A DNA stretch of 64,000 bases from Actinomycetota bacterium. Lineage in GTDB: Bacteria; Actinomycetota; Actinomycetes; S36-B12. The stretch's first letter is position 1; the number at the start of each line of letters is the position of its first letter. The DNA lies in assembly GCA_030645615.1 (NCBI GenBank), contig JAUSNB010000015.1, forward strand, positions 320,035 to 384,034. Direction: 5' to 3'. Below, piece after piece: positions 45,001 through 57,000 of the stretch. The position numbers are program-made.

Positions 45001-48000
45001 CTTCGGCGCCGCGTTCAGGAGATCGTGGGACCGACTTGCCGCGAGCCACGGCGTGGGTGACTACCTCGTCCTGGAAGGTCCGTCGGTGAGCCTGTCGATC
45101 GTGGCCCGGGACGCCGCCGGCGAGCCGTCAGGGCATTTCAAGGCGCTCTTCGCGCAGGAGATGGTCAGGGCCGGAGTGCTGATGCCCTGGCTGGCGCCGA
45201 GCCTGGCGCATGGGGACACCGAGCTGGAGCTGACGGAGCGCGCTCTGGACTCCACGTTCCAGGTGTATGCAAAGGCGTTGGCAGACGGCCCGGAAACGTA
45301 CCTCGAGGGTCCGCCGCTGAAGCCCGTGTTTCGAAGGAACAACTAGCGACCACGATGCGGAATCGCGTGGTTCTGGTCGTTGAATCGCCCTTCTCGGCGC
45401 GTGACGCCGAGCGCTTCGGTGTAACCGATCTTCGTGCTGCGGGCCTAGCCGTGGAGGTCTGGGAGATCGCGGACCTAACCCTCCCGGACGCGCGACGACA
45501 GTGGTTCGAGCCGTCACCCGATGTCGCGATCGAGAGGGTGGGCACCTGGGACAGGTTCGAGGAACTGGCCGGCCGGCTTACCTCCGACGACGCCGTCGTG
45601 CTGATCTGCGGGGTGTACGCCCCGCTGTCGGCGAAGTACTCGGCTCTCCTCAAGCGGATCCTGGACTCGCAAGCCCTCGTGGGCACTCTCGCCTCCGGTA
45701 CGATTCCCCCGCCGGTTGGCACGCAGCGGCTGCGAGCATGGGCCTATGCGTCCCTCAAGAAGTTGCAGGCGCTCGCCCGACCCCCCGTCGAAGTACCGCG
45801 CGCCCTCGATTTCGTATGGGCGGGAACCACCGTCAAGGCCGTCGCATCAGAACTGCGTGACGCGCGTACTACGTGCCGGTTCATCCATACGCTGGATGCA
45901 GACCTCCTCCTTGCGGTGGAGCCACGTGCAATCCGGGAGCAGTTCGCCTTGATCGTCGACACCATGGGCCCCTTCCATCCTGACTATGTGAGCCAGGGCA
46001 TGGAGAATCCGTGGCCGCCCGACTGCTACCAGTCCATCGTCCAGTCGGTCTCGGAGGGCCTGACGGCCCGGGGTCTGGAGGTTGTTGTCGCGGCCCATCC
46101 CCGAGCAAAGCCGGGGAGCTTGGATGCCCTCTACCCGGGCCTGCAGGTGGTTCACGGACGCACGCCGGAGTTGCTGGCCTCGTGCGCTTTCGCGATTGCC
46201 ATCGAGGGCTCTACGTCGCTCGGGATGGCCGCATACCTGCAGACGCCGGTGCTGTTCGTCAACGCACCGTGCGTTCCGGCTTTCGTGGCGGGGATCGCCG
46301 CCAGCTTCCGGAGGGCAATGCACGCGCCAAACGCCGCGGTGGGCGAACTCTCAAGCGTGGCCATGCCTCCACTGGTGGATCAAGCCGCACTTGCGCGCTA
46401 CGTGCGTCGGTACGTGAAGAGTGCAGGAAGCCCGGACAGGAGATTCTGGTCCGTGGTAGCTGCGGACATCCTTGACTCACCGCGGGACTGACACGGCGCA
46501 GTATCGTGGCCACGTGCCTCGTTGCTCGCATGCCCGATCCCCGAGCCGTCGTTGCAGGGTGTCGGCGAGGAAGCGACCATGAGCTTGATCGCCGGTTGGC
46601 TGCACGCCCGTGCGGCCGCCCGCCACTCTCGGGACACCAGCCGCGATTTCGAGGAGCTGCTGGGCGGCACCAGGCTCCGCCTCGTCGACGTGGGTGCCGC
46701 CGGCGAACTCGAGCCGCGGTGGCGGCGCGTCAGCGGTGCCGTGGACTACGTCGGCTTCGAGCCCGACGAACGGTCGCGCGCCAGGCTCCTGGCGAATGAC
46801 CAGGGGTGCGCGTCGTACCGCATCCTCGACACCGCGCTGAGCGACCAGGCAGGAGACCTCGACCTGCACCTGTGCCGCAAGCCGATGGCCTCCTCCTCCT
46901 TCGAGCCCGATGCCGACTTCCTCGGCCGGTTCCCCGACGTCGGGCGCTTCGACGTGGTCGGCACGGTGGTGCTCCCGGCAAGGCGGCTGGACGACCTGGA
47001 CCTGGCGGGGTGCGACTTCATCAAGGTCGACGTCCAGGGCGCCGAGCTCGCTGTCCTGCGGGGCGCGAGCGGGATGCTGGACGCCTGCCTGGGCGTCGAG
47101 GCCGAGGTGGAGTTCCTGCCTATGTATCGCGGCCAACCGCTGTTCGGAGAGGTGTCCGGCTACCTTTCGACCGTCGGCCTGGAGTTCGTCGACTTCGTCT
47201 CGCTCAACCGTTGGCGTCGCGATCGCTTCGACGGGCACGGGCAGTTGGTTTCCGCCGATGCGCTCTTCCTGCGTGCCCCCGAGCAGGAGTGGTGGGGCTC
47301 GGCCGATGCGGCCACGGTCACCCGCTATGCGGGCATCTGCGCCCTCTACCACCGGTACGACCTGGTGAGGCGACTCGTCGACATGCACCCGTCGATCACA
47401 CTGGGACCCGGCCAGCAGGATGCCCTCAACCGGATGGAGCGCCGGTTCGACCGGTCCCGCCGCCCCGTCTCGACCGCCCAGTCGTGGCTGCAGGTCGCCG
47501 GGTCGGGCGAGGCCGTCGTGCACCTGACCTACTGAGCCCGCTCAGCCGCTCGGCACCCCGGCCTCGCCGAGGGTGGCCCGCCACCGGACGAGCCCCGGGT
47601 CGAGGTGGAACACGCGATCGATGCCGCCCCGTCCCGTCATCGAGAGTCCTCGTTCTCGTCTAGGCGCGGAGGCGACCAGCAGGTCGAGCAGTTCGGCGGC
47701 CGTCGTGACGGTGCCGGCCGGATCGGCCAGCAGATCGCTGCTCAGCGTCCTGGCGGGGAGGAGGACGGCCACGGGGACGCCGAGCGACTCCGCCAGAAGC
47801 ACCGACGACGAGAAATCGCCGACGAGGGCGAGGTCGCACGCCGCGAGCAGGTCGGGCAGGGGTGAAGCCTGGTCGAGCGACGCCCCCTGGGGGAGGTCGG
47901 TCGCGGTGCCGACAGCGGCGGGATGCGGCCGCCAGGTGATCGCCACGTCGGTCCCGGCGTGCGACGCTGCCGCTTCGAGGTCGCGCAGCAGTCTGCGCTG

Positions 48001-54000: not shown

Positions 54001-57000
54001 GGCACTTCGACTGCCTCGCGACTGAGTACGACGACCTCCTCGCTGACGGCGCCGTAATGGAAGCAGCGATTCACCGATCCCTGCTGTTCAAGCGCGAGTT
54101 GATCCAGGTCGACGAGTTCGACCGCGGACCCCGGAATGTCATGAACTACGGCCACTCATTCGGTCACGCCATCGAGATCGCCACCGACTACGCGATACCG
54201 CACGGCATCGCGGTCACGATCGGCATGGATCTTGCCAATTTCGTGTCCGCGCAGCTCGGCGTGAGCGGCGCTGATCAGTACGAGCGGATGCACCCCACGC
54301 TGGCCCGCAACTTCCGGGGCTTCGAAGCCGTCGCCATCGACCCGGAGCGCCTGCTTGCGGCACTGCGGCGTGACAAGAAGAACTCCGCCACTCATCTGCG
54401 GCTCGTGCTGGTGGACCACGAAGGCTCGATCGGGCTCGTCGACGTCGAGCCGGAGGGCCGTCTCGTCGAGGCGGTCCGGTCCTACCTCGCATAGGCTCGG
54501 GCGCCGGGAGTCGGACCGTGGATGGAGGAACCGTGCGAGAGCCCTTGGTGGCCGTGGCCTCGCGTTCCTTCTCCGCCAACGCGCGGTTGCGCGGTGAACT
54601 CCTGGCGGCCTTCCCGAACTGCCGCTTCAACGAGGAGGGCGGGCGCCTGGAGGGCGATGCGCTGGCTGGCTTCCTGAACGACGCCGCGGGGGCGATAGTG
54701 GGCGTGGAGCGGATCGACCGGCCGCTCCTGGAGCGGCTGCCCCAGCTCAAGGTGGTGTCGAAGTACGGGGTGGGCCTGGACTCGATCGACCTCGACGGTC
54801 TCGCCGAGCACGGTGTTCTCCTCGCCTGGACCCCGGGGACCAATGCTGCCGCCGTTGCCGAGTTGGCCCTCCTGCACATGCTCGCGACCCTGCGTCGCGT
54901 GCCCGAGGGGCTGGCGCGCGTGAACCGCCGCGAGTGGGCTCCGCTGACGGGACGGCTCCTTGCCGGGTCGACCGTCGGCCTGGTCGGGGTCGGTCATGTA
55001 GGCCGGACTCTGGCCGCACTGCTCGAACCGTTCGGCTGCGATCTGCTCGGCTACGACGTAGTCCCGATCGACGCGCCCGGGGTTCGTGAGGTGCCGTTGG
55101 CTGAGCTGCTCGCGCGCGCCGATGTCGTCACCCTCCATGTGCCGCTGACTCCCGCGACCCGGCACTTGATCGGCGAAGCGGAACTGGCCCTCATGAAGCC
55201 GGATGCCGTCCTGGTCAACACGGCGCGTGGTGGGGTCGTCGACGAGGCGGCCTTGATGCATGCGCTCCGTGACGGCCGCCTCTTCGCCGCTGGTCTCGAC
55301 GTGCTGGAGAGCGAGCCGCCGACTACCTGGGAGGCGGCCGAGATCGAGACGGTGTTCCTGACGCCGCACCTGGCCGGTTCGTCCGAGCAATCCAACCTAG
55401 CCATGGGCCGCGCCGCGGTCAGGGGCCTCGTCGACAACCGTGCAGCGCTGGTCGGCTGACATGACTGATCGCATCCTCCTGTTCGGCGCATCGGGCCAGC
55501 TCGGGCGCGCCCTGCTGTCCGCGGGGCCACCGGACGTGGTGATCGCACCTCGAAGCGTCGACATCGCCGACGCCCAGGCCGTTCTGGAGTGCACAAAGCA
55601 GGCCACACCGACCTGGATCGTCAATGCCGCCGCCATGACCGACGTGGACGGAGCACACGTGCGGCCCGAACTGGCGATGGCCATCAACACACTGGGACCG
55701 GGCAATCTGGCCCGGGCCGCCGACAGTGTGGGTGCACGGATGGTCCACGTGTCGACGGAGGCGGTGTTCGACGGCGAGAGCACCCGTTCATACACCGAGG
55801 ATGACGTCTGCCACCCGGTTTCGGTGTATGGCGCCTCGAAGCTGGCCGGCGAACACCTGGTCTCCATCTTCAGCCCCGAGTCGTACATCCTGCGGACGTC
55901 GTGGCTGTACTCGGGGGCCACGGGAACGAACTTCCCGACCCGGATCCTCGAGCAACTCCGTGATCCGGGGCGGGTCATCTCCGTCGTCACGGACATCGTC
56001 GGGAATCCGACGACGACCAGCCTGCTGGCGGAAGCGATCATGGCACTCATGGGGCGACCCCCGGCGCCAGGGACGTACCACGTGTGCTGCCGCGACGCTG
56101 CCTCGAAGTTCGACTGGGCAGTGGAGATCGCTGAGGTCGGCGGGCACGATCCCGGCCGGATCACGCCCGTGACTTCAGCCGAGTATCCGACGGTCGCCCT
56201 GCGGCCCAAGCACGTCGACCTGGACTGCACGAAGTTCGCGGACACGGGCCTGATCCGCCTGCCGACGTGGCGCGAGGCGTGGCGGGACGTGCTGGCCGAC
56301 CGGGGCTAACGGTGCGTCGGGCGGCGCGCGAGCCTGCGCCGCATGCCCGCAGCGATGCTCCCCACCGCCGCAGTCCGGCGCACACCAATGGCGCGCAGGC
56401 CCTGCGCCGTTCGTGCCAGCGTCTGCCCCGCGCTGGCGCCTGCTGCGCGCCAACCGAGGGCGGCGGTGGTCCATTGACGGGCCACGGCCCGGTCGAACTG
56501 CTCGGGATCGAAGGCGCGGGCCGTCTCGTTGGCTGACCGGAGGCGGCCGAGCCAGCGCTCGATCGCGTCGAGGTCAGCCGGGTCCTCGATGACGACGGGG
56601 GACACCGTTGCCAGGCGATGCATCCGCATGTCCTCGTCGGACATGCGGATGCCCAGTGCGCGTTCGGCGAGTTTCGACTGGATCCGCAGAGCCTGCCCGT
56701 TCATGCGCTCGAGTTCGGCGCCCCGTGACGTCTGGGTCCCGTGCACCCGGTACGCGGCAAGGGCCGCGGGGATGTTGTGCAGCGTGAGGCTGTCCGAGGC
56801 CACGCTCCACAGGTCGTAGTCGAGCGAGTTGCCGAACTCGGGCCGGAAGGCGAGGCCCTGTGACACGAATGGCTCACGGCGCATCATGACCGTGTTGCAC
56901 GCGATCGGGTTGAGGAACAGCATGGCGGCCCTGAGCTCGGCATGGCTGCTCGGCAACCGCTCAAGGGAGCGCGCGAAGGAGCCGTCTGGTTGCTCGATCC

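What the first reader, a model, noticed from the sequence alone, without database searches (positions are those of the whole stretch)
47542..56309. Unassignable block: KdsB-like cytidylyltransferase + HpcH/HpaI aldolase + Gfo/Idh/MocA + SIS + SDR + DHQS-like + 2-hydroxyacid DH + RmlD-like. Candidate new CMP-activated 3-deoxy-ulosonic (or carbocyclic) sugar pathway
Seen: two divergent operons share an 88-nt gap.
- Minus strand: aldolase (50200-50979), then a KdsB-like gene (49427-50203, ATGA-type coupling), then the 617-aa orphan GT-B-like protein.
- Plus strand: Gfo/Idh/MocA, GmhA-like SIS, FabG-like SDR, 3-dehydroquinate-synthase-family protein (metal ligands and NAD motif apparently intact), D-2-hydroxyacid dehydrogenase, RmlD-like reductase.

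No KdsA/DAHP-synthase-type or NeuB-type condensing enzyme belongs to this block. The SIS protein lacks the CBS domains of KdsD.

Established: HpcH/HpaI aldolases reversibly join pyruvate to aldehydes, giving 4-hydroxy-2-oxo acids, which are 3-deoxy-2-ulosonic acids. KdsB-family enzymes make CMP-ulosonates. DHQS-family enzymes cyclise 3-deoxy-ulosonate or ketose phosphates (DAHP, sedoheptulose-7-P, glucose-6-P) into carbocycles.

Inference: a PEP-independent, pyruvate-aldolase-based route to a CMP-activated ulosonic acid, possibly further oxidised, reduced or cyclised. The adjacent orphan protein would then transfer it. I know of no described pathway with this gene set.
Basis: partly seen in the sequence, partly recalled or inferred. 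Interest (0 to 1): 0.85.

Follow-up and report, generated by a model that had tools for sequence, protein, structure and literature searches.

The report
Uncharacterised CMP-sugar-acid gene cassette
This block is one copy of a gene cassette, conserved across many bacterial phyla but never characterised, that most likely builds a cytidine-activated acidic sugar for the cell surface and, unusually, uses a relative of a shikimate-pathway enzyme where sister cassettes use a plain phosphatase.

Summary
In detail: all nine genes are present at the stated coordinates, in two divergent operons 88 nt apart, inside a 64-kb surface-glycan island of an Actinomycetota MAG.

The set is not a chance neighbourhood. 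Relatives of the DHQS-like protein (NCBIfam TIGR04425, function unknown) sit in the same cassette in 68 genomes from at least eight phyla. The SDR lies directly upstream in 61/61 loci. In 43 well-flanked loci, Gfo occurs in 39, 2-hydroxyacid DH in 38 and KdsB-like in 36. The aldolase occurs in only 19, SIS in 18 and RmlD in 2.

The 617-aa "orphan" is TIGR04326, and its model has a GT-B fold. In 37/37 metagenomic loci it accompanies a cytidylyltransferase and a 2-hydroxyacid DH.

Sister cassettes carry a HAD or IMPase phosphatase where this one has SDR + DHQS-like.

Best reading: a CMP-activated C7 2-ulosonic-type acid whose terminal phosphate is removed by elimination, giving a deoxy or carbocyclic product. 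The keto-acid arises either by oxidation (Gfo, then 2-hydroxyacid DH) or by the aldolase; this is unresolved.

No described pathway was found. Interest 0.72.

The parts
47542..49395 (-). 617-aa TIGR04326-family protein with a GT-B fold; the presumed transferase of the CMP-activated acid
   Evidence: NCBIfam TIGR04326 scores 249.8 bits against a cutoff of 250, aligned over residues 34-610. There is no Pfam hit. It is identical to NCBI protein P0121. The AF2 model has pLDDT 87.9 and pTM 0.90. Foldseek returns only GT-B glycosyltransferases. Invariant motifs are ENQPWE and KPHP. In metagenomic loci it sits with a cytidylyltransferase and a 2HADH in 37/37 cases.
49427..50203 (-). KdsB-like CTP:ulosonate cytidylyltransferase
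   Evidence: PF02348, 1.5e-39. Subfamily model NF003952 scores 235 against a cutoff of 193. The KdsB equivalog models fall below cutoff: TIGR00466 150.2 against 155.2, and NF003948 155 against 281. All the stronger PDB sequence hits are KdsB; only two weak NeuA hits follow. It is present in 36/43 well-flanked DHQS-like loci.
50200..50979 (-). HpcH/HpaI class II (metal-dependent) 2-oxo-acid aldolase; its stop overlaps the KdsB-like start (GTGA)
   Evidence: PF03328, 1.3e-37. It falls below every equivalog cutoff. The His, Arg, Glu and Asp of HpaI are conserved. It is adjacent to the KdsB-like gene in 25/27 loci that have both, but present in only 19/43 loci.
50980..51067 (.). 88-nt divergent intergenic region between the two operons
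   Evidence: Sequence read directly. There is no consensus promoter or terminator and no Rfam hit.
51068..52162 (+). Gfo/Idh/MocA NAD(P) oxidoreductase; proposed sugar-phosphate 1-dehydrogenase or sugar-ring dehydrogenase
   Evidence: PF01408, PF22725 and PF02894. The nearest solved relatives are inositol 2-DH, 1,5-anhydrofructose reductase and glucose-fructose oxidoreductase. Present in 39/43 loci at 48-64% identity.
52128..52733 (+). GmhA-like single-domain SIS sugar-phosphate isomerase
   Evidence: PF13580. TIGR00441 gmhA scores 124 against a cutoff of 209. The best PDB hits are all phosphoheptose isomerases. The catalytic His is kept; the residue aligned to the GmhA Glu I recall as catalytic is Asp, and a Gln is Glu. 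Present in 18/43 loci.
52730..53449 (+). Classical SDR ketoreductase, the obligate partner of the DHQS-like gene (8-nt overlap with it)
   Evidence: PF13561 and PF00106. It lies directly upstream of the DHQS-like gene in 61/61 loci that have at least 1 kb of upstream sequence.
53442..54494 (+). DHQS-family enzyme, TIGR04425 ('AroB-related putative sugar phosphate phospholyase (cyclizing)')
   Evidence: TIGR04425 scores 423.7 against a cutoff of 400, whereas aroB TIGR01357 scores 253.6 against 305. All AroB catalytic, metal, phosphate and carboxylate-binding motifs are kept. Family-specific changes are GSKSS for GGKTG, His181, Phe226-Asp227 and Pro151. Relatives are found in 68 genome loci. A database search returned 4860 proteins at E<=1e-40.
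54518..55459 (+). D-isomer-specific 2-hydroxyacid dehydrogenase (PGDH / glyoxylate reductase / 2-ketogluconate reductase type)
   Evidence: PF02826 and PF00389. The nearest solved relatives are 3-phosphoglycerate DH, glyoxylate reductase and a probable 2-ketogluconate reductase. It lies directly downstream of the DHQS-like gene in 43/60 loci. It is present in 37/37 TIGR04326 loci.
55440..56309 (+). RmlD-type reductase; a lineage-specific accessory, not part of the conserved core
   Evidence: TIGR01214 scores 262 against a cutoff of 224. It keeps the same position in close relatives L071, L074 and L075, but occurs in only 2/43 cassettes elsewhere.
56306..57439 (-). GT2 glycosyltransferase, syntenic in close relatives
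   Evidence: PF00535. It is conserved next to the cassette in L071, L074 and L075, and present in 15/43 loci.
57442..59349 (+). Asparagine-synthase-like amidotransferase, syntenic in close relatives
   Evidence: PF00733, PF13537 and PF13522. It is present in L071 and L075 and in 10/43 loci.

Best explanation
**What it is.** The block is a self-contained cassette that makes an acidic sugar, activates it as a CMP ester and transfers it to a surface glycan. The product is a 2-ulosonic-type acid, most likely with seven carbons.

**Shown here**
- Gene content, order and conservation.
- Family assignments.
- An intact DHQS-type active site.
- A GT-B fold for the 617-aa protein.

**Inferred pathway**
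1. A sugar phosphate is the starting material. I favour sedoheptulose-7-P, isomerised by the GmhA-like SIS protein to a heptose-7-P.
2. Gfo/Idh/MocA oxidises it at C1 to the aldonate-7-P. A 6-phosphogluconolactonase homologue helps in some cassettes.
3. The 2-hydroxyacid DH oxidises it at C2, giving a hept-2-ulosonate 7-phosphate. This compound is the carboxylate analogue of sedoheptulose-7-P, that is, 3-hydroxy-DAHP.
4. The DHQS-like enzyme then runs DHQS chemistry: transient NAD+ oxidation followed by beta-elimination of the 7-phosphate.
5. The obligatorily coupled SDR reduces the resulting ketone.
6. Together the pair does the job that a HAD or IMPase phosphatase does in sister cassettes, but it leaves a 7-deoxy product (favoured) or a carbocyclic product.
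7. The KdsB-like enzyme makes the CMP ester, and the TIGR04326 GT-B protein transfers it.

**The aldolase.** The HpcH aldolase is tightly coupled to the KdsB-like gene but dispensable in about half of the cassettes. It either supplies the same kind of acid by aldol condensation, or edits C3/C4 stereochemistry by enolisation or retro-aldol. Its role is unresolved.

**Accessories.** RmlD, GT2 and AsnB are lineage-specific.
For: **Conservation**
- Conserved colinear cassettes occur in 68 genomes: Elusimicrobiota, Acidobacteriota, Actinomycetota, Rhodospirillales/Magnetospirillum, Legionella, Coxiellaceae, Desulfovibrionales and Syntrophorhabdaceae.
- The SDR lies directly upstream of the DHQS-like gene in 61/61 loci, and the 2HADH directly downstream in 43/60.
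- In 43 well-flanked loci: Gfo 39, 2HADH 38, KdsB-like 36.
- L071, L074 and L075 reproduce the whole window layout.

**The TIGR04326 protein**
- It co-occurs with a cytidylyltransferase in 37/37 loci and with a 2HADH in 37/37. HpcH occurs in 29/37 and NeuB in only 6/37.
- It has a GT-B fold.

**The phosphatase slot**
- Variant C has the same gene order, HpcH-KdsB-MT-Gfo-SIS-[X]-2HADH-TIGR04326, with X an IMPase-family phosphatase. Its other proteins are 39-63% identical to those of the window.
- Variant B has a HAD phosphatase.
- These phosphatases are essentially absent from the 68 DHQS-like loci.

**Hints of an oxidative route**
- A Pgl homologue (TIGR01198, 139 bits against a cutoff of 124) lies immediately next to the 2HADH in variant B. 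Pgl-like genes also lie beside the 2HADH in L043, L055 and L058.

**Two independent pointers to a C7 7-phosphate**
- The DHQS-like protein keeps the motif positions that, by my recollection of the DHQS structures, bind the phosphate and the carboxylate.
- The SIS protein is closest to GmhA.

**The cytidylyltransferase** is of KdsB type, not NeuA type.
Against: - No enzyme was assayed and the product is unknown.
- CMP activation of a 2-ulosonic acid that is not 3-deoxy has no precedent that I know of. KdsB homology argues instead for a 3-deoxy acid, which is what the aldolase would make.
- The oxidative route leaves the aldolase without a necessary role, although it is adjacent to the KdsB-like gene in 25/27 loci.
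- Every characterised DHQS-family enzyme is a cyclase. The enol-pyranose intermediate of DHQS is known to cyclise spontaneously. A non-cyclised 7-deoxy product therefore needs special pleading, for example action on the CMP-locked sugar or interception by the SDR.
- One relative, P0315, is a DHQS-like-HAD fusion in a NeuB/IMPase cluster without KdsB or 2HADH. The simple "replaces a phosphatase" rule is therefore not universal.
- The window also encodes an HldE-like protein. The SIS gene could simply be the GmhA of an NDP-heptose pathway.
- Gfo substrate typing is weak; the best hits are inositol dehydrogenases.
Confidence: 0.5

Rival explanations
1. Aldolase-first route. HpcH condenses pyruvate with an aldose phosphate, for example erythrose-4-P, to give a DAHP-like 3-deoxy-hept-2-ulosonate-7-P. 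The DHQS-like + SDR pair removes the phosphate (a phosphatase does this in sister cassettes). The KdsB-like enzyme activates the 3-deoxy acid and TIGR04326 transfers it. Gfo, SIS and 2HADH are tailoring or precursor-supply enzymes. Cassettes without the aldolase draw DAHP or Kdo-8-P from housekeeping synthases.
For: - HpcH is adjacent to, and often translationally coupled with, the KdsB-like gene in 25/27 loci (for the window).
- HpcH is present in 29 of the 32 TIGR04326 loci that have a KdsB-like gene.
- In variant B the HAD phosphatase gene overlaps the aldolase gene, echoing the KdsC/KdsA logic.
- The aldolase catalytic residues are intact.
- KdsB relatives are known only with 3-deoxy-2-ulosonic acids (established knowledge).
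- The DHQS-like active site matches a DAHP-type substrate.
Against: - The aldolase is absent from 24 of 43 well-flanked DHQS-like loci and from the whole HisC-aminotransferase cassette type. No substitute aldolase or NeuB is found there.
- This model leaves the most conserved partners (2HADH 37/37, Gfo 39/43), the Pgl-like lactonase and the GmhA-like SIS without a defined role.
- A 2-hydroxyacid DH has no obvious substrate in this scheme.
Confidence: 0.3
2. Carbocycle reading. The DHQS-like enzyme is a true cyclase. It converts DAHP or its 3-hydroxy analogue into a dehydroquinate-like cyclohexanone carboxylate. The SDR and Gfo (inositol-DH-like) tailor the cyclitol. The KdsB-like enzyme esterifies the tertiary C1-OH with CMP, making a carba-analogue of a CMP-ulosonic acid. 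TIGR04326 then acts as a pseudo-glycosyltransferase.
For: - All known DHQS-family enzymes cyclise (established knowledge).
- Every DHQS catalytic residue is retained.
- The SDR is an obligatory partner, as expected for a keto-cyclitol product.
- The nearest Gfo relatives are inositol dehydrogenases.
- The GT-B fold is shared with the pseudo-glycosyltransferases VldE/ValL, although this match is generic.
Against: - Orthologous KdsB-like (45-50% identity) and TIGR04326 proteins serve sister cassettes that have a plain phosphatase and no cyclase. The donors should therefore be closely similar true sugars.
- Displacement at a saturated tertiary carbocyclic carbon lacks oxocarbenium assistance, so transfer from a CMP ester would be chemically unprecedented.
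- No carbocyclic acid is known in bacterial surface glycans, to my knowledge.
Confidence: 0.17
3. No dedicated pathway. The genes are an accidental juxtaposition within a large glycan island: an ordinary CMP-Kdo synthetase, a spare AroB paralogue, the GmhA of the NDP-heptose route and the RmlD of dTDP-rhamnose.
For: - The window is a 64-kb island containing several independent sugar pathways.
- An HldE-like gene is present.
- RmlD passes its equivalog cutoff.
Against: - The same ordered set recurs across at least eight phyla.
- The KdsB, AroB and GmhA equivalog cutoffs are all missed.
- The DHQS-like protein passes the distinct TIGR04425 model.
- No kdsA/kdsC/kdsD or shikimate genes were found in the parts of the window I annotated.
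Confidence: 0.03

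Closest known systems
Kdo pathway (KdsD isomerase, KdsA synthase, KdsC phosphatase, KdsB CMP-Kdo synthetase, Kdo transferases)
   Same: The logic is the same: sugar-phosphate isomerase, then 2-keto-acid phosphate, then phosphate removal, then CMP activation by a KdsB-type enzyme, then transfer. The cytidylyltransferase is a clear KdsB homologue.
   Different: - There is no PEP-dependent KdsA. A class II pyruvate aldolase and/or an oxidative Gfo + 2HADH route takes its place.
- The SIS protein is GmhA-like and has no CBS domains.
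- In place of KdsC there is a DHQS-like lyase plus an SDR.
- The transferase belongs to an uncharacterised GT-B family (TIGR04326).
- The KdsB equivalog cutoffs are not met.
Nonulosonic acid pathways (NeuB/LegI/PseI synthase, NeuA/LegF/PseF, sialyl- or NulO-transferases)
   Same: Both produce CMP-activated alpha-keto acid sugars for surface glycans. The terminal-deoxy versus hydroxy pair (Leg/Pse versus Neu/Kdn) parallels the DHQS-like versus phosphatase cassettes. An HP-type motif sits in the C-terminal domain of the transferase; its significance rests on my memory of sialyltransferase motifs.
   Different: No NeuB belongs to the cassette: it occurs in 6/68 and 6/37 loci. The cytidylyltransferase is KdsB-type, not NeuA-type. 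In Leg/Pse the deoxy function is made at the NDP-hexose stage by 4,6-dehydratases, not by a DHQS-family enzyme.
3-Dehydroquinate synthase (AroB) and the sugar phosphate cyclases (EEVS, DDGS, EVS, DOIS)
   Same: The fold is the same, and every catalytic, metal-, NAD-, phosphate- and carboxylate-binding motif of AroB is present. Identity to H. pylori DHQS in the core is roughly 45% by eye.
   Different: The protein falls below the aroB equivalog cutoff and above the separate TIGR04425 cutoff. It has family-specific substitutions around Lys152 and Lys197 (A. nidulans numbering, from memory). It is never found with shikimate genes; it always has an SDR and usually a 2HADH, Gfo and KdsB-like gene.
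2-Ketoaldonate chemistry of the 2-hydroxyacid DH family (SerA, PdxB, 2-ketogluconate(-6-P) reductases), with Zwf/Pgl-type lactone formation
   Same: The cassette 2HADH is closest to PGDH, glyoxylate reductase and a probable 2-ketogluconate reductase. A Pgl homologue lies next to it in several cassettes.
   Different: Those enzymes serve central or catabolic metabolism. Here the proposed direction is biosynthetic: it would create the keto group that is later esterified with CMP. This is untested.
Class II pyruvate aldolases HpaI, YfaU/RhmA and GarL
   Same: Same Pfam family and the same catalytic His, Arg, Glu and Asp. Their products are 3-deoxy-2-ulosonic acids.
   Different: The known members are catabolic. 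Here the gene is fused into a glycan-biosynthesis operon and translationally coupled to a cytidylyltransferase. It falls far below all equivalog cutoffs.

Membership tests
TIGR04425 (AroB-related putative sugar phosphate phospholyase, cyclizing; function unknown) | Full-length HMM score at or above the curated cutoff of 400 bits | tested here: met
   423.7 bits, aligned over residues 8-349 of 350.
AroB 3-dehydroquinate synthase | Equivalog HMM TIGR01357 score at or above 305 bits | tested here: not met
   253.6 bits.
AroB 3-dehydroquinate synthase | Catalytic and metal, phosphate and carboxylate-binding residues | tested here: met
   All are conserved in the window protein and in at least 90% of 64 family members. 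Residue roles are taken from memory of the A. nidulans and H. pylori structures.
AroB 3-dehydroquinate synthase | Acts in the shikimate pathway (context with aro genes; DAHP converted to DHQ) | tested here: not met
   The gene is always embedded in glycan cassettes with an SDR, 2HADH, Gfo and KdsB-like gene. Enzyme activity cannot be tested with these tools.
Sugar phosphate cyclases (EEVS, DDGS, EVS, DOIS) | Phylogenetic placement in one of these clades, with loss of the carboxylate-binding residues | not tested
   No reference sequences were at hand for a tree. By PDB sequence score the protein is nearer to AroB (158 bits) than to DOIS (107), ValA (105) or DDGS (84). The carboxylate-binding positions are retained.
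KdsB (CMP-Kdo synthetase) | Equivalog HMM cutoffs (TIGR00466 at 155.2; NF003948 at 281) | tested here: not met
   150.2 and 155.1 bits. Only the subfamily model NF003952 passes, at 235 against 193.
KdsB (CMP-Kdo synthetase) | Partner genes kdsA, kdsC and kdsD supplying Kdo | tested here: not met
   None was found in the block or in the parts of the window that I annotated. The rest of the genome was not available.
TIGR04326 surface carbohydrate biosynthesis protein | HMM score at or above 250 bits | tested here: inconclusive
   249.8 bits over the full length. Relatives at 27-46% identity are named TIGR04326 by JGI and NCBI.
GT-B glycosyltransferases | Two Rossmann-like domains matching solved GT-B enzymes | tested here: met
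   AF2 model with pLDDT 87.9. The top 50 Foldseek hits are all GT-B enzymes, with E about 1e-7 and target TM-scores mostly 0.40-0.56. Donor specificity was not tested.
HpcH/HpaI class II aldolase | PF03328 domain and the catalytic His/Arg plus metal-binding Glu/Asp | tested here: met
   129.6 bits. The residues align with HpaI. The equivalog cutoffs for HpaI, RhmA and GarL are not met.
GmhA phosphoheptose isomerase | Equivalog cutoff (TIGR00441 at 209) and the catalytic Glu/His pair | tested here: not met
   124.3 bits. The His is conserved, but the residue aligned to the GmhA Glu that I recall as catalytic is Asp.
RmlD dTDP-4-dehydrorhamnose reductase | Equivalog cutoff (TIGR01214 at 224) with rmlA, rmlB and rmlC partners | tested here: inconclusive
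   262 bits, which passes. No rmlA or rmlC was recognised in the annotated parts of the window, and some ORFs were not scanned.
NeuB-dependent nonulosonic acid pathway | A NeuB-family synthase within the cassette | tested here: not met
   Absent from the block. Present within 10 kb in only 6/68 DHQS-like loci, and in only 6/37 TIGR04326 loci.

The most novel reading that the evidence does not exclude
The DHQS-like enzyme really does cyclise a hept-2-ulosonate-7-phosphate. The cassette would then make a CMP-activated carbocyclic pseudo-sugar (a carba-ulosonic acid). TIGR04326 would install it on a surface glycan as a new kind of pseudo-glycosyltransferase. This would be the first nucleotide-activated carba-sugar acid in primary cell-envelope biosynthesis, and it would be widespread across phyla.
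Probability: 0.17. Interest if true: 0.95.

Novelty: new variant of a known kind. Interest (0 to 1): 0.72.

Why it matters
CMP-activated keto-acid sugars (Kdo, sialic, legionaminic and pseudaminic acids) are key surface determinants. All known routes start with a PEP-dependent synthase.

This cassette lacks such a synthase. It recruits a shikimate-type enzyme into nucleotide-sugar metabolism and comes with its own uncharacterised family of GT-B transferases. It occurs in thousands of environmental and host-associated bacteria, including Legionella, Coxiellaceae and Magnetospirillum.

Solving it would have four consequences:
- It would add a new sugar, or pseudo-sugar, to the bacterial glycome.
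- It would assign functions to two "hypothetical" NCBIfam families.
- It would give a new reaction outcome, or a new substrate, for the DHQS superfamily.
- It would provide candidate genes for unassigned CMP-linked ulosonic acids seen by mass spectrometry (preprint 10.64898/2026.04.20.719630; PMC8157484).

The comparison with the phosphatase-type sister cassettes makes the question directly testable with a handful of recombinant enzymes.

Tried and rejected
- **Literature.** Nine full-text searches combined HpcH, cytidylyltransferase, dehydroquinate synthase, Gfo, TIGR04425, TIGR04326, LIC13510, sugar phosphate cyclase, ulosonic, heptulosonic and teichulosonic. None described this gene set.
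- **CpgD.** This CTP:phosphoglycerate cytidylyltransferase was checked as a possible analogue. It was rejected because it is a COG1213/IMPCT-type enzyme, not KdsB-type.
- **Magnetospirillum gryphiswaldense.** A link to its unassigned C10 CMP-ulosonic acids was considered. Cassettes occur in other Magnetospirillum species (L028, L038, L066). No M. gryphiswaldense protein appeared among the best 120 relatives of the M. aberrantis DHQS-like protein. It remains an untested lead.
- **PDB searches.** Sequence searches with the individual proteins gave only generic family members. A profile of the TIGR04326 family found nothing in the PDB.
- **Regulatory signals.** No promoter, terminator or Rfam signal was found in or around the 88-nt gap.
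- **Alternative substrates for the DHQS-like enzyme.** I considered action on Kdo-8-P, on NulO-9-P or on a C10 acid made from heptose plus pyruvate. I rejected these because the conserved carboxylate and phosphate sites fit only a DAHP-like C7 geometry (inference).
- **TIGR04326 serving the neighbouring NeuB/NeuA cluster.** Rejected as the main reading, because NeuB accompanies TIGR04326 in only 6/37 loci.
- **Phylogeny.** A tree of the DHQS-like protein among EEVS, DDGS, EVS and DOIS could not be built for lack of reference sequences.

Full report
**1.

ORF listing and Pfam/NCBIfam scans confirm all nine genes.

On the minus strand:
- 47542-49395: a 617-aa protein with no Pfam hit. NCBIfam TIGR04326 scores 249.8 bits against a cutoff of 250.
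- 49427-50203: a KdsB-like cytidylyltransferase (PF02348).
- 50200-50979: an HpcH/HpaI aldolase (PF03328).

On the plus strand:
- 51068-52162: Gfo/Idh/MocA.
- 52128-52733: a single-domain GmhA-like SIS protein with no CBS domain.
- 52730-53449: a classical SDR.
- 53442-54494: a DHQS-family protein.
- 54518-55459: a D-2-hydroxyacid dehydrogenase.
- 55440-56309: RmlD.

The divergent gap is exactly 88 nt. The aldolase stop and the KdsB-like start overlap as GTGA. The 617-aa reading frame is identical to an NCBI protein annotated as hypothetical in an Actinomycetota MAG, on a 452-kb contig (P0121).

**2. The surroundings**

The window is one large surface-glycan island. It holds two NeuB genes. 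One, at 7786-8823, is followed by an IMPase-family phosphatase. The other, at 40345-41475, comes with a DegT aminotransferase, a NeuA-like cytidylyltransferase, a second Gfo and a class-III aminotransferase.

The island also holds a transaldolase/FSA gene, an HldE-like kinase/nucleotidyltransferase, a split transketolase and a carbamoyltransferase. There are further DegT aminotransferases, methyltransferases and glycosyltransferases. The block under study is a separate unit inside this island.

**3. Two members belong to curated families of unknown function**

The DHQS-like protein passes TIGR04425, [quoted passage not shown], a hypothetical equivalog. It scores 423.7 against a cutoff of 400. 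It fails aroB itself, at 253.6 against 305.

The 617-aa protein is TIGR04326, a "surface carbohydrate biosynthesis protein".

The KdsB, GmhA, HpaI/GarL/RhmA, PGDH and IolG equivalog cutoffs are all missed. Only RmlD passes its cutoff.

**4. The cassette is conserved far beyond chance**

A scan of one genome per species found 68 loci encoding relatives of the DHQS-like protein, most of them 45-57% identical to it. They come from Elusimicrobiota, Acidobacteriota, Actinomycetota, Rhodospirillales (including Magnetospirillum and Paramagnetospirillum), Hyphomicrobiales, Legionella, Coxiellaceae, Desulfovibrionales and Syntrophorhabdaceae.

tblastn with the window proteins gave these counts:
- The SDR lies directly upstream in 61/61 loci with enough sequence.
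- The 2HADH lies directly downstream in 43/60.

| Gene | Present in the 43 loci with at least 6 kb upstream and 3 kb downstream |
|---|---|
| SDR | 43 |
| Gfo | 39 |
| 2HADH | 38 |
| KdsB-like | 36 |
| HpcH | 19 |
| SIS | 18 |
| GT2 | 15 |
| AsnB | 10 |
| RmlD | 2 |

Two cassette types appear:
- Type I: HpcH-KdsB-(methyltransferase)-Gfo-(SIS)-SDR-DHQS-like-2HADH.
- Type II: HisC-like aminotransferase-Gfo-Gfo-KdsB-SDR-DHQS-like-2HADH-methyltransferases. It has no aldolase and no substitute for one.

NeuB lies within 10 kb in only 6/68 loci. Close relatives L071, L074 and L075 reproduce the complete window layout, including RmlD, GT2 and AsnB.

**5. The 617-aa protein**

An AlphaFold2 model built from 50 homologues is confident (pLDDT 87.9, pTM 0.90). 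It matches only GT-B glycosyltransferases in the PDB, such as CalG3, SpnG, OtsA/VldE and LanGT2, with E about 1e-7. A sequence profile finds nothing in the PDB.

Invariant motifs include ENQPWE and a KPHP segment in the C-terminal domain. From memory, an HP motif is typical of CMP-sugar-dependent GT-B enzymes. I treat that as a lead, not a test.

A metagenome scan returned 80 loci. Of the 37 with at least 6 kb upstream:
- All 37 have a PF02348-type cytidylyltransferase. It is KdsB-like in 32 and lies directly upstream in 19.
- All 37 have a 2-hydroxyacid DH.
- 29 have HpcH.
- Only 6 have NeuB.

The protein therefore belongs with the KdsB-like module, not with the neighbouring NeuB cluster.

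**6. The key comparison: sister cassettes**

The TIGR04326 loci fall into variants.

| Variant | Loci | Content |
|---|---|---|
| A | 6 | The window type, with SDR + DHQS-like |
| C | 8-10 | Same order, HpcH-KdsB-methyltransferase-Gfo-SIS-[X]-2HADH-TIGR04326, with X an IMPase-family phosphatase (PF00459, 1.6e-45); proteins 39-63% identical to the window's |
| B | about 20 | (Pgl)-2HADH-epimerase-FkbM methyltransferase-HAD phosphatase-HpcH-...-epimerase-KdsB-TIGR04326 |
| D | a few | A NeuA-like cytidylyltransferase, HAD and 2HADH, but no aldolase |

The HAD and IMPase genes of these cassettes are practically absent from the 68 DHQS-like loci. The SDR + DHQS-like pair thus occupies the slot of a phosphatase.

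The simplest reading is that all variants pass through a phosphorylated acid. The window type removes the phosphate by DHQS-style beta-elimination followed by ketoreduction, rather than by hydrolysis.

There is one counter-example. P0315 is a DHQS-like-HAD fusion in a NeuB/IMPase/radical-SAM cluster.

**7. What the substrate is likely to be**

The DHQS-like protein keeps every AroB motif. These include the positions that, from memory of the A. nidulans structure, bind the phosphate (Arg130, Lys152, Asn162, Asn268, His275, Lys356), the metal (Glu194, His271, His287) and the carboxylate (Lys250, Arg264).

It also has family-specific changes next to Lys152 (GSKSS for GGKTG) and Lys197 (an invariant His two residues on), plus Phe226-Asp227 and Pro151.

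This fits a seven-carbon pyranose 2-ulosonate 7-phosphate of DAHP geometry. It does not fit Kdo-8-P, NulO-9-P or a neutral ketose phosphate.

Independently, the SIS protein is closest to GmhA, whose substrate is sedoheptulose-7-P. Its catalytic His is kept; the residue aligned to the Glu I recall as catalytic is Asp.

**8. Where the 2-keto acid comes from**

I see two routes.

The oxidative route runs from an aldose phosphate through Gfo/Idh/MocA to the lactone or aldonate phosphate, and then through the 2-hydroxyacid DH to the 2-keto-aldonate phosphate. Evidence for it:
- The 2HADH is universal (37/37).
- A 6-phosphogluconolactonase homologue (TIGR01198, 139 bits against 124) lies immediately beside the 2HADH in variant B. 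Pgl-like genes lie beside the 2HADH in L043, L055 and L058.
- The 2HADH is close to PGDH and 2-ketogluconate reductases.
- Aldolase-free cassettes exist.

Starting from sedoheptulose-7-P, this route would give D-altro-hept-2-ulosonate-7-P. That compound is a hybrid of the two classical substrates of the DHQS superfamily.

Evidence for it:
- HpcH and the KdsB-like gene are tightly coupled (25/27 adjacent; 29 of the 32 KdsB-like-bearing TIGR04326 loci).
- The HAD and HpcH genes overlap in variant B.
- The aldolase catalytic residues are intact.
- All known KdsB-type substrates are 3-deoxy acids.

I favour the oxidative route for the DHQS-like substrate, because it uses the genes that are actually constant. 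The margin is small, and the aldolase's role is unresolved.

**9. Deoxy sugar or carbocycle?**

Every characterised DHQS-family enzyme cyclises. That keeps the carbocycle reading alive, at about 0.17.

Against it, the KdsB-like and TIGR04326 proteins are orthologous to those of the phosphatase-type cassettes. Glycosyl transfer from a saturated carbocyclic tertiary centre would also be unprecedented.

I therefore favour a 7-deoxy 2-ulosonic acid. This parallels the 9-deoxy Leg/Pse sugars against Neu/Kdn. It could arise by action on the CMP-locked sugar or by SDR interception of the 6-keto intermediate. This step is inference only.

**10. Comparison with what is known, and novelty**

The cassette works like the Kdo and nonulosonic-acid pathways: sugar phosphate, then keto-acid phosphate, then dephosphorylation, then CMP ester, then transfer. 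It is not a member of either pathway. It has no KdsA or NeuB, it misses the equivalog cutoffs, and it uses a different transferase family.

Nine literature searches found no description of it.

[quoted passage not shown] Cassettes occur in other Magnetospirillum species. I could not show one in M. gryphiswaldense, so this is only a lead.

**11. Verdict**

The block is a real, widely conserved, biochemically uncharacterised pathway: a new variant of CMP-activated acidic-sugar biosynthesis.

Three points need revision:
- The emphasis on the aldolase as the condensing step.
- The inclusion of RmlD in the core.
- The label "orphan".

Interest 0.72.

Noticed in passing
window 1846-9605: A second nonulosonic-acid-type cluster: PseB-like dehydratase (1846-2823), DegT aminotransferase (2828-3955), ATP-grasp (6830-7789), NeuB (7786-8823) and an IMPase-family phosphatase (8796-9605). 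A NeuB followed by a phosphatase suggests a synthase that uses a phosphorylated sugar. The same ATP-grasp/NeuB/IMPase arrangement sits next to an SDR + DHQS-like-HAD fusion in L154.
   Followed up: partly
window 38843-47535: A third CMP-sugar route lies immediately upstream of the block: CBS-DegT aminotransferase, NeuB (40345-41475), SDR, NeuA-like cytidylyltransferase (42283-43002), Gfo/Idh/MocA, class-III aminotransferase, a 378-aa protein with no Pfam hit (45355-46491) and an FkbM methyltransferase (46522-47535).
   Followed up: partly
window 13383-17741: A transaldolase/FSA-family gene (13383-14126), two epimerase/dehydratases and an HldE-like fusion of a PfkB kinase with a nucleotidyltransferase (16014-17741). 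From memory, this resembles NDP-heptose or lincosamide-type NDP-octose pathways. The only GmhA-like gene I saw in the window is the SIS gene of the block.
   Followed up: no
window 28760-30533 (-): A split transketolase pair (N-terminal TPP domain, and pyrimidine-binding plus C-terminal domains) lies among methyltransferases and a GDP-mannose-dehydratase-like gene. From memory, such pairs make two-carbon-branched sugars.
   Followed up: no
window 36194-37900: A carbamoyltransferase (PF02543/PF16861), followed by a protein with a xylose-isomerase-like TIM barrel (37933-38853).
   Followed up: no
L069 277-1953; L072 755-2428: A 557-558-aa TIGR04417 'polysaccharide biosynthesis PFTS motif protein' of unknown function recurs at the edge of the HAD-type sister cassettes, in 5 of 37 loci.
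   Followed up: no
L154 9001-10737 (protein P0315): A natural fusion of a DHQS-like domain with a HAD-hydrolase domain (578 aa), preceded by the usual SDR. It lies in a cluster with NeuB, IMPase, a PIG-L deacetylase and several B12/radical-SAM enzymes, but with no KdsB-like or 2HADH gene within 9 kb.
   Followed up: partly
L033 2160-4313; L143 8256-9910: B12-binding radical-SAM enzymes (likely C-methyltransferases) recur in the aldolase-free cassette types. This could add carbon atoms to the sugar backbone.
   Followed up: no
L028, L038, L066 (Paramagnetospirillum caucaseum, Magnetospirillum aberrantis, Magnetospirillum sp.): The cassette occurs in magnetotactic spirilla. [quoted passage not shown] No M. 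gryphiswaldense homologue appeared among the best 120 relatives.
   Followed up: partly
window 59452-61287: A second, divergent 611-aa protein of the asparagine-synthase/GATase_6 type lies directly after the AsnB-like gene, followed by two GT4-type glycosyltransferases (61185-63714).
   Followed up: no
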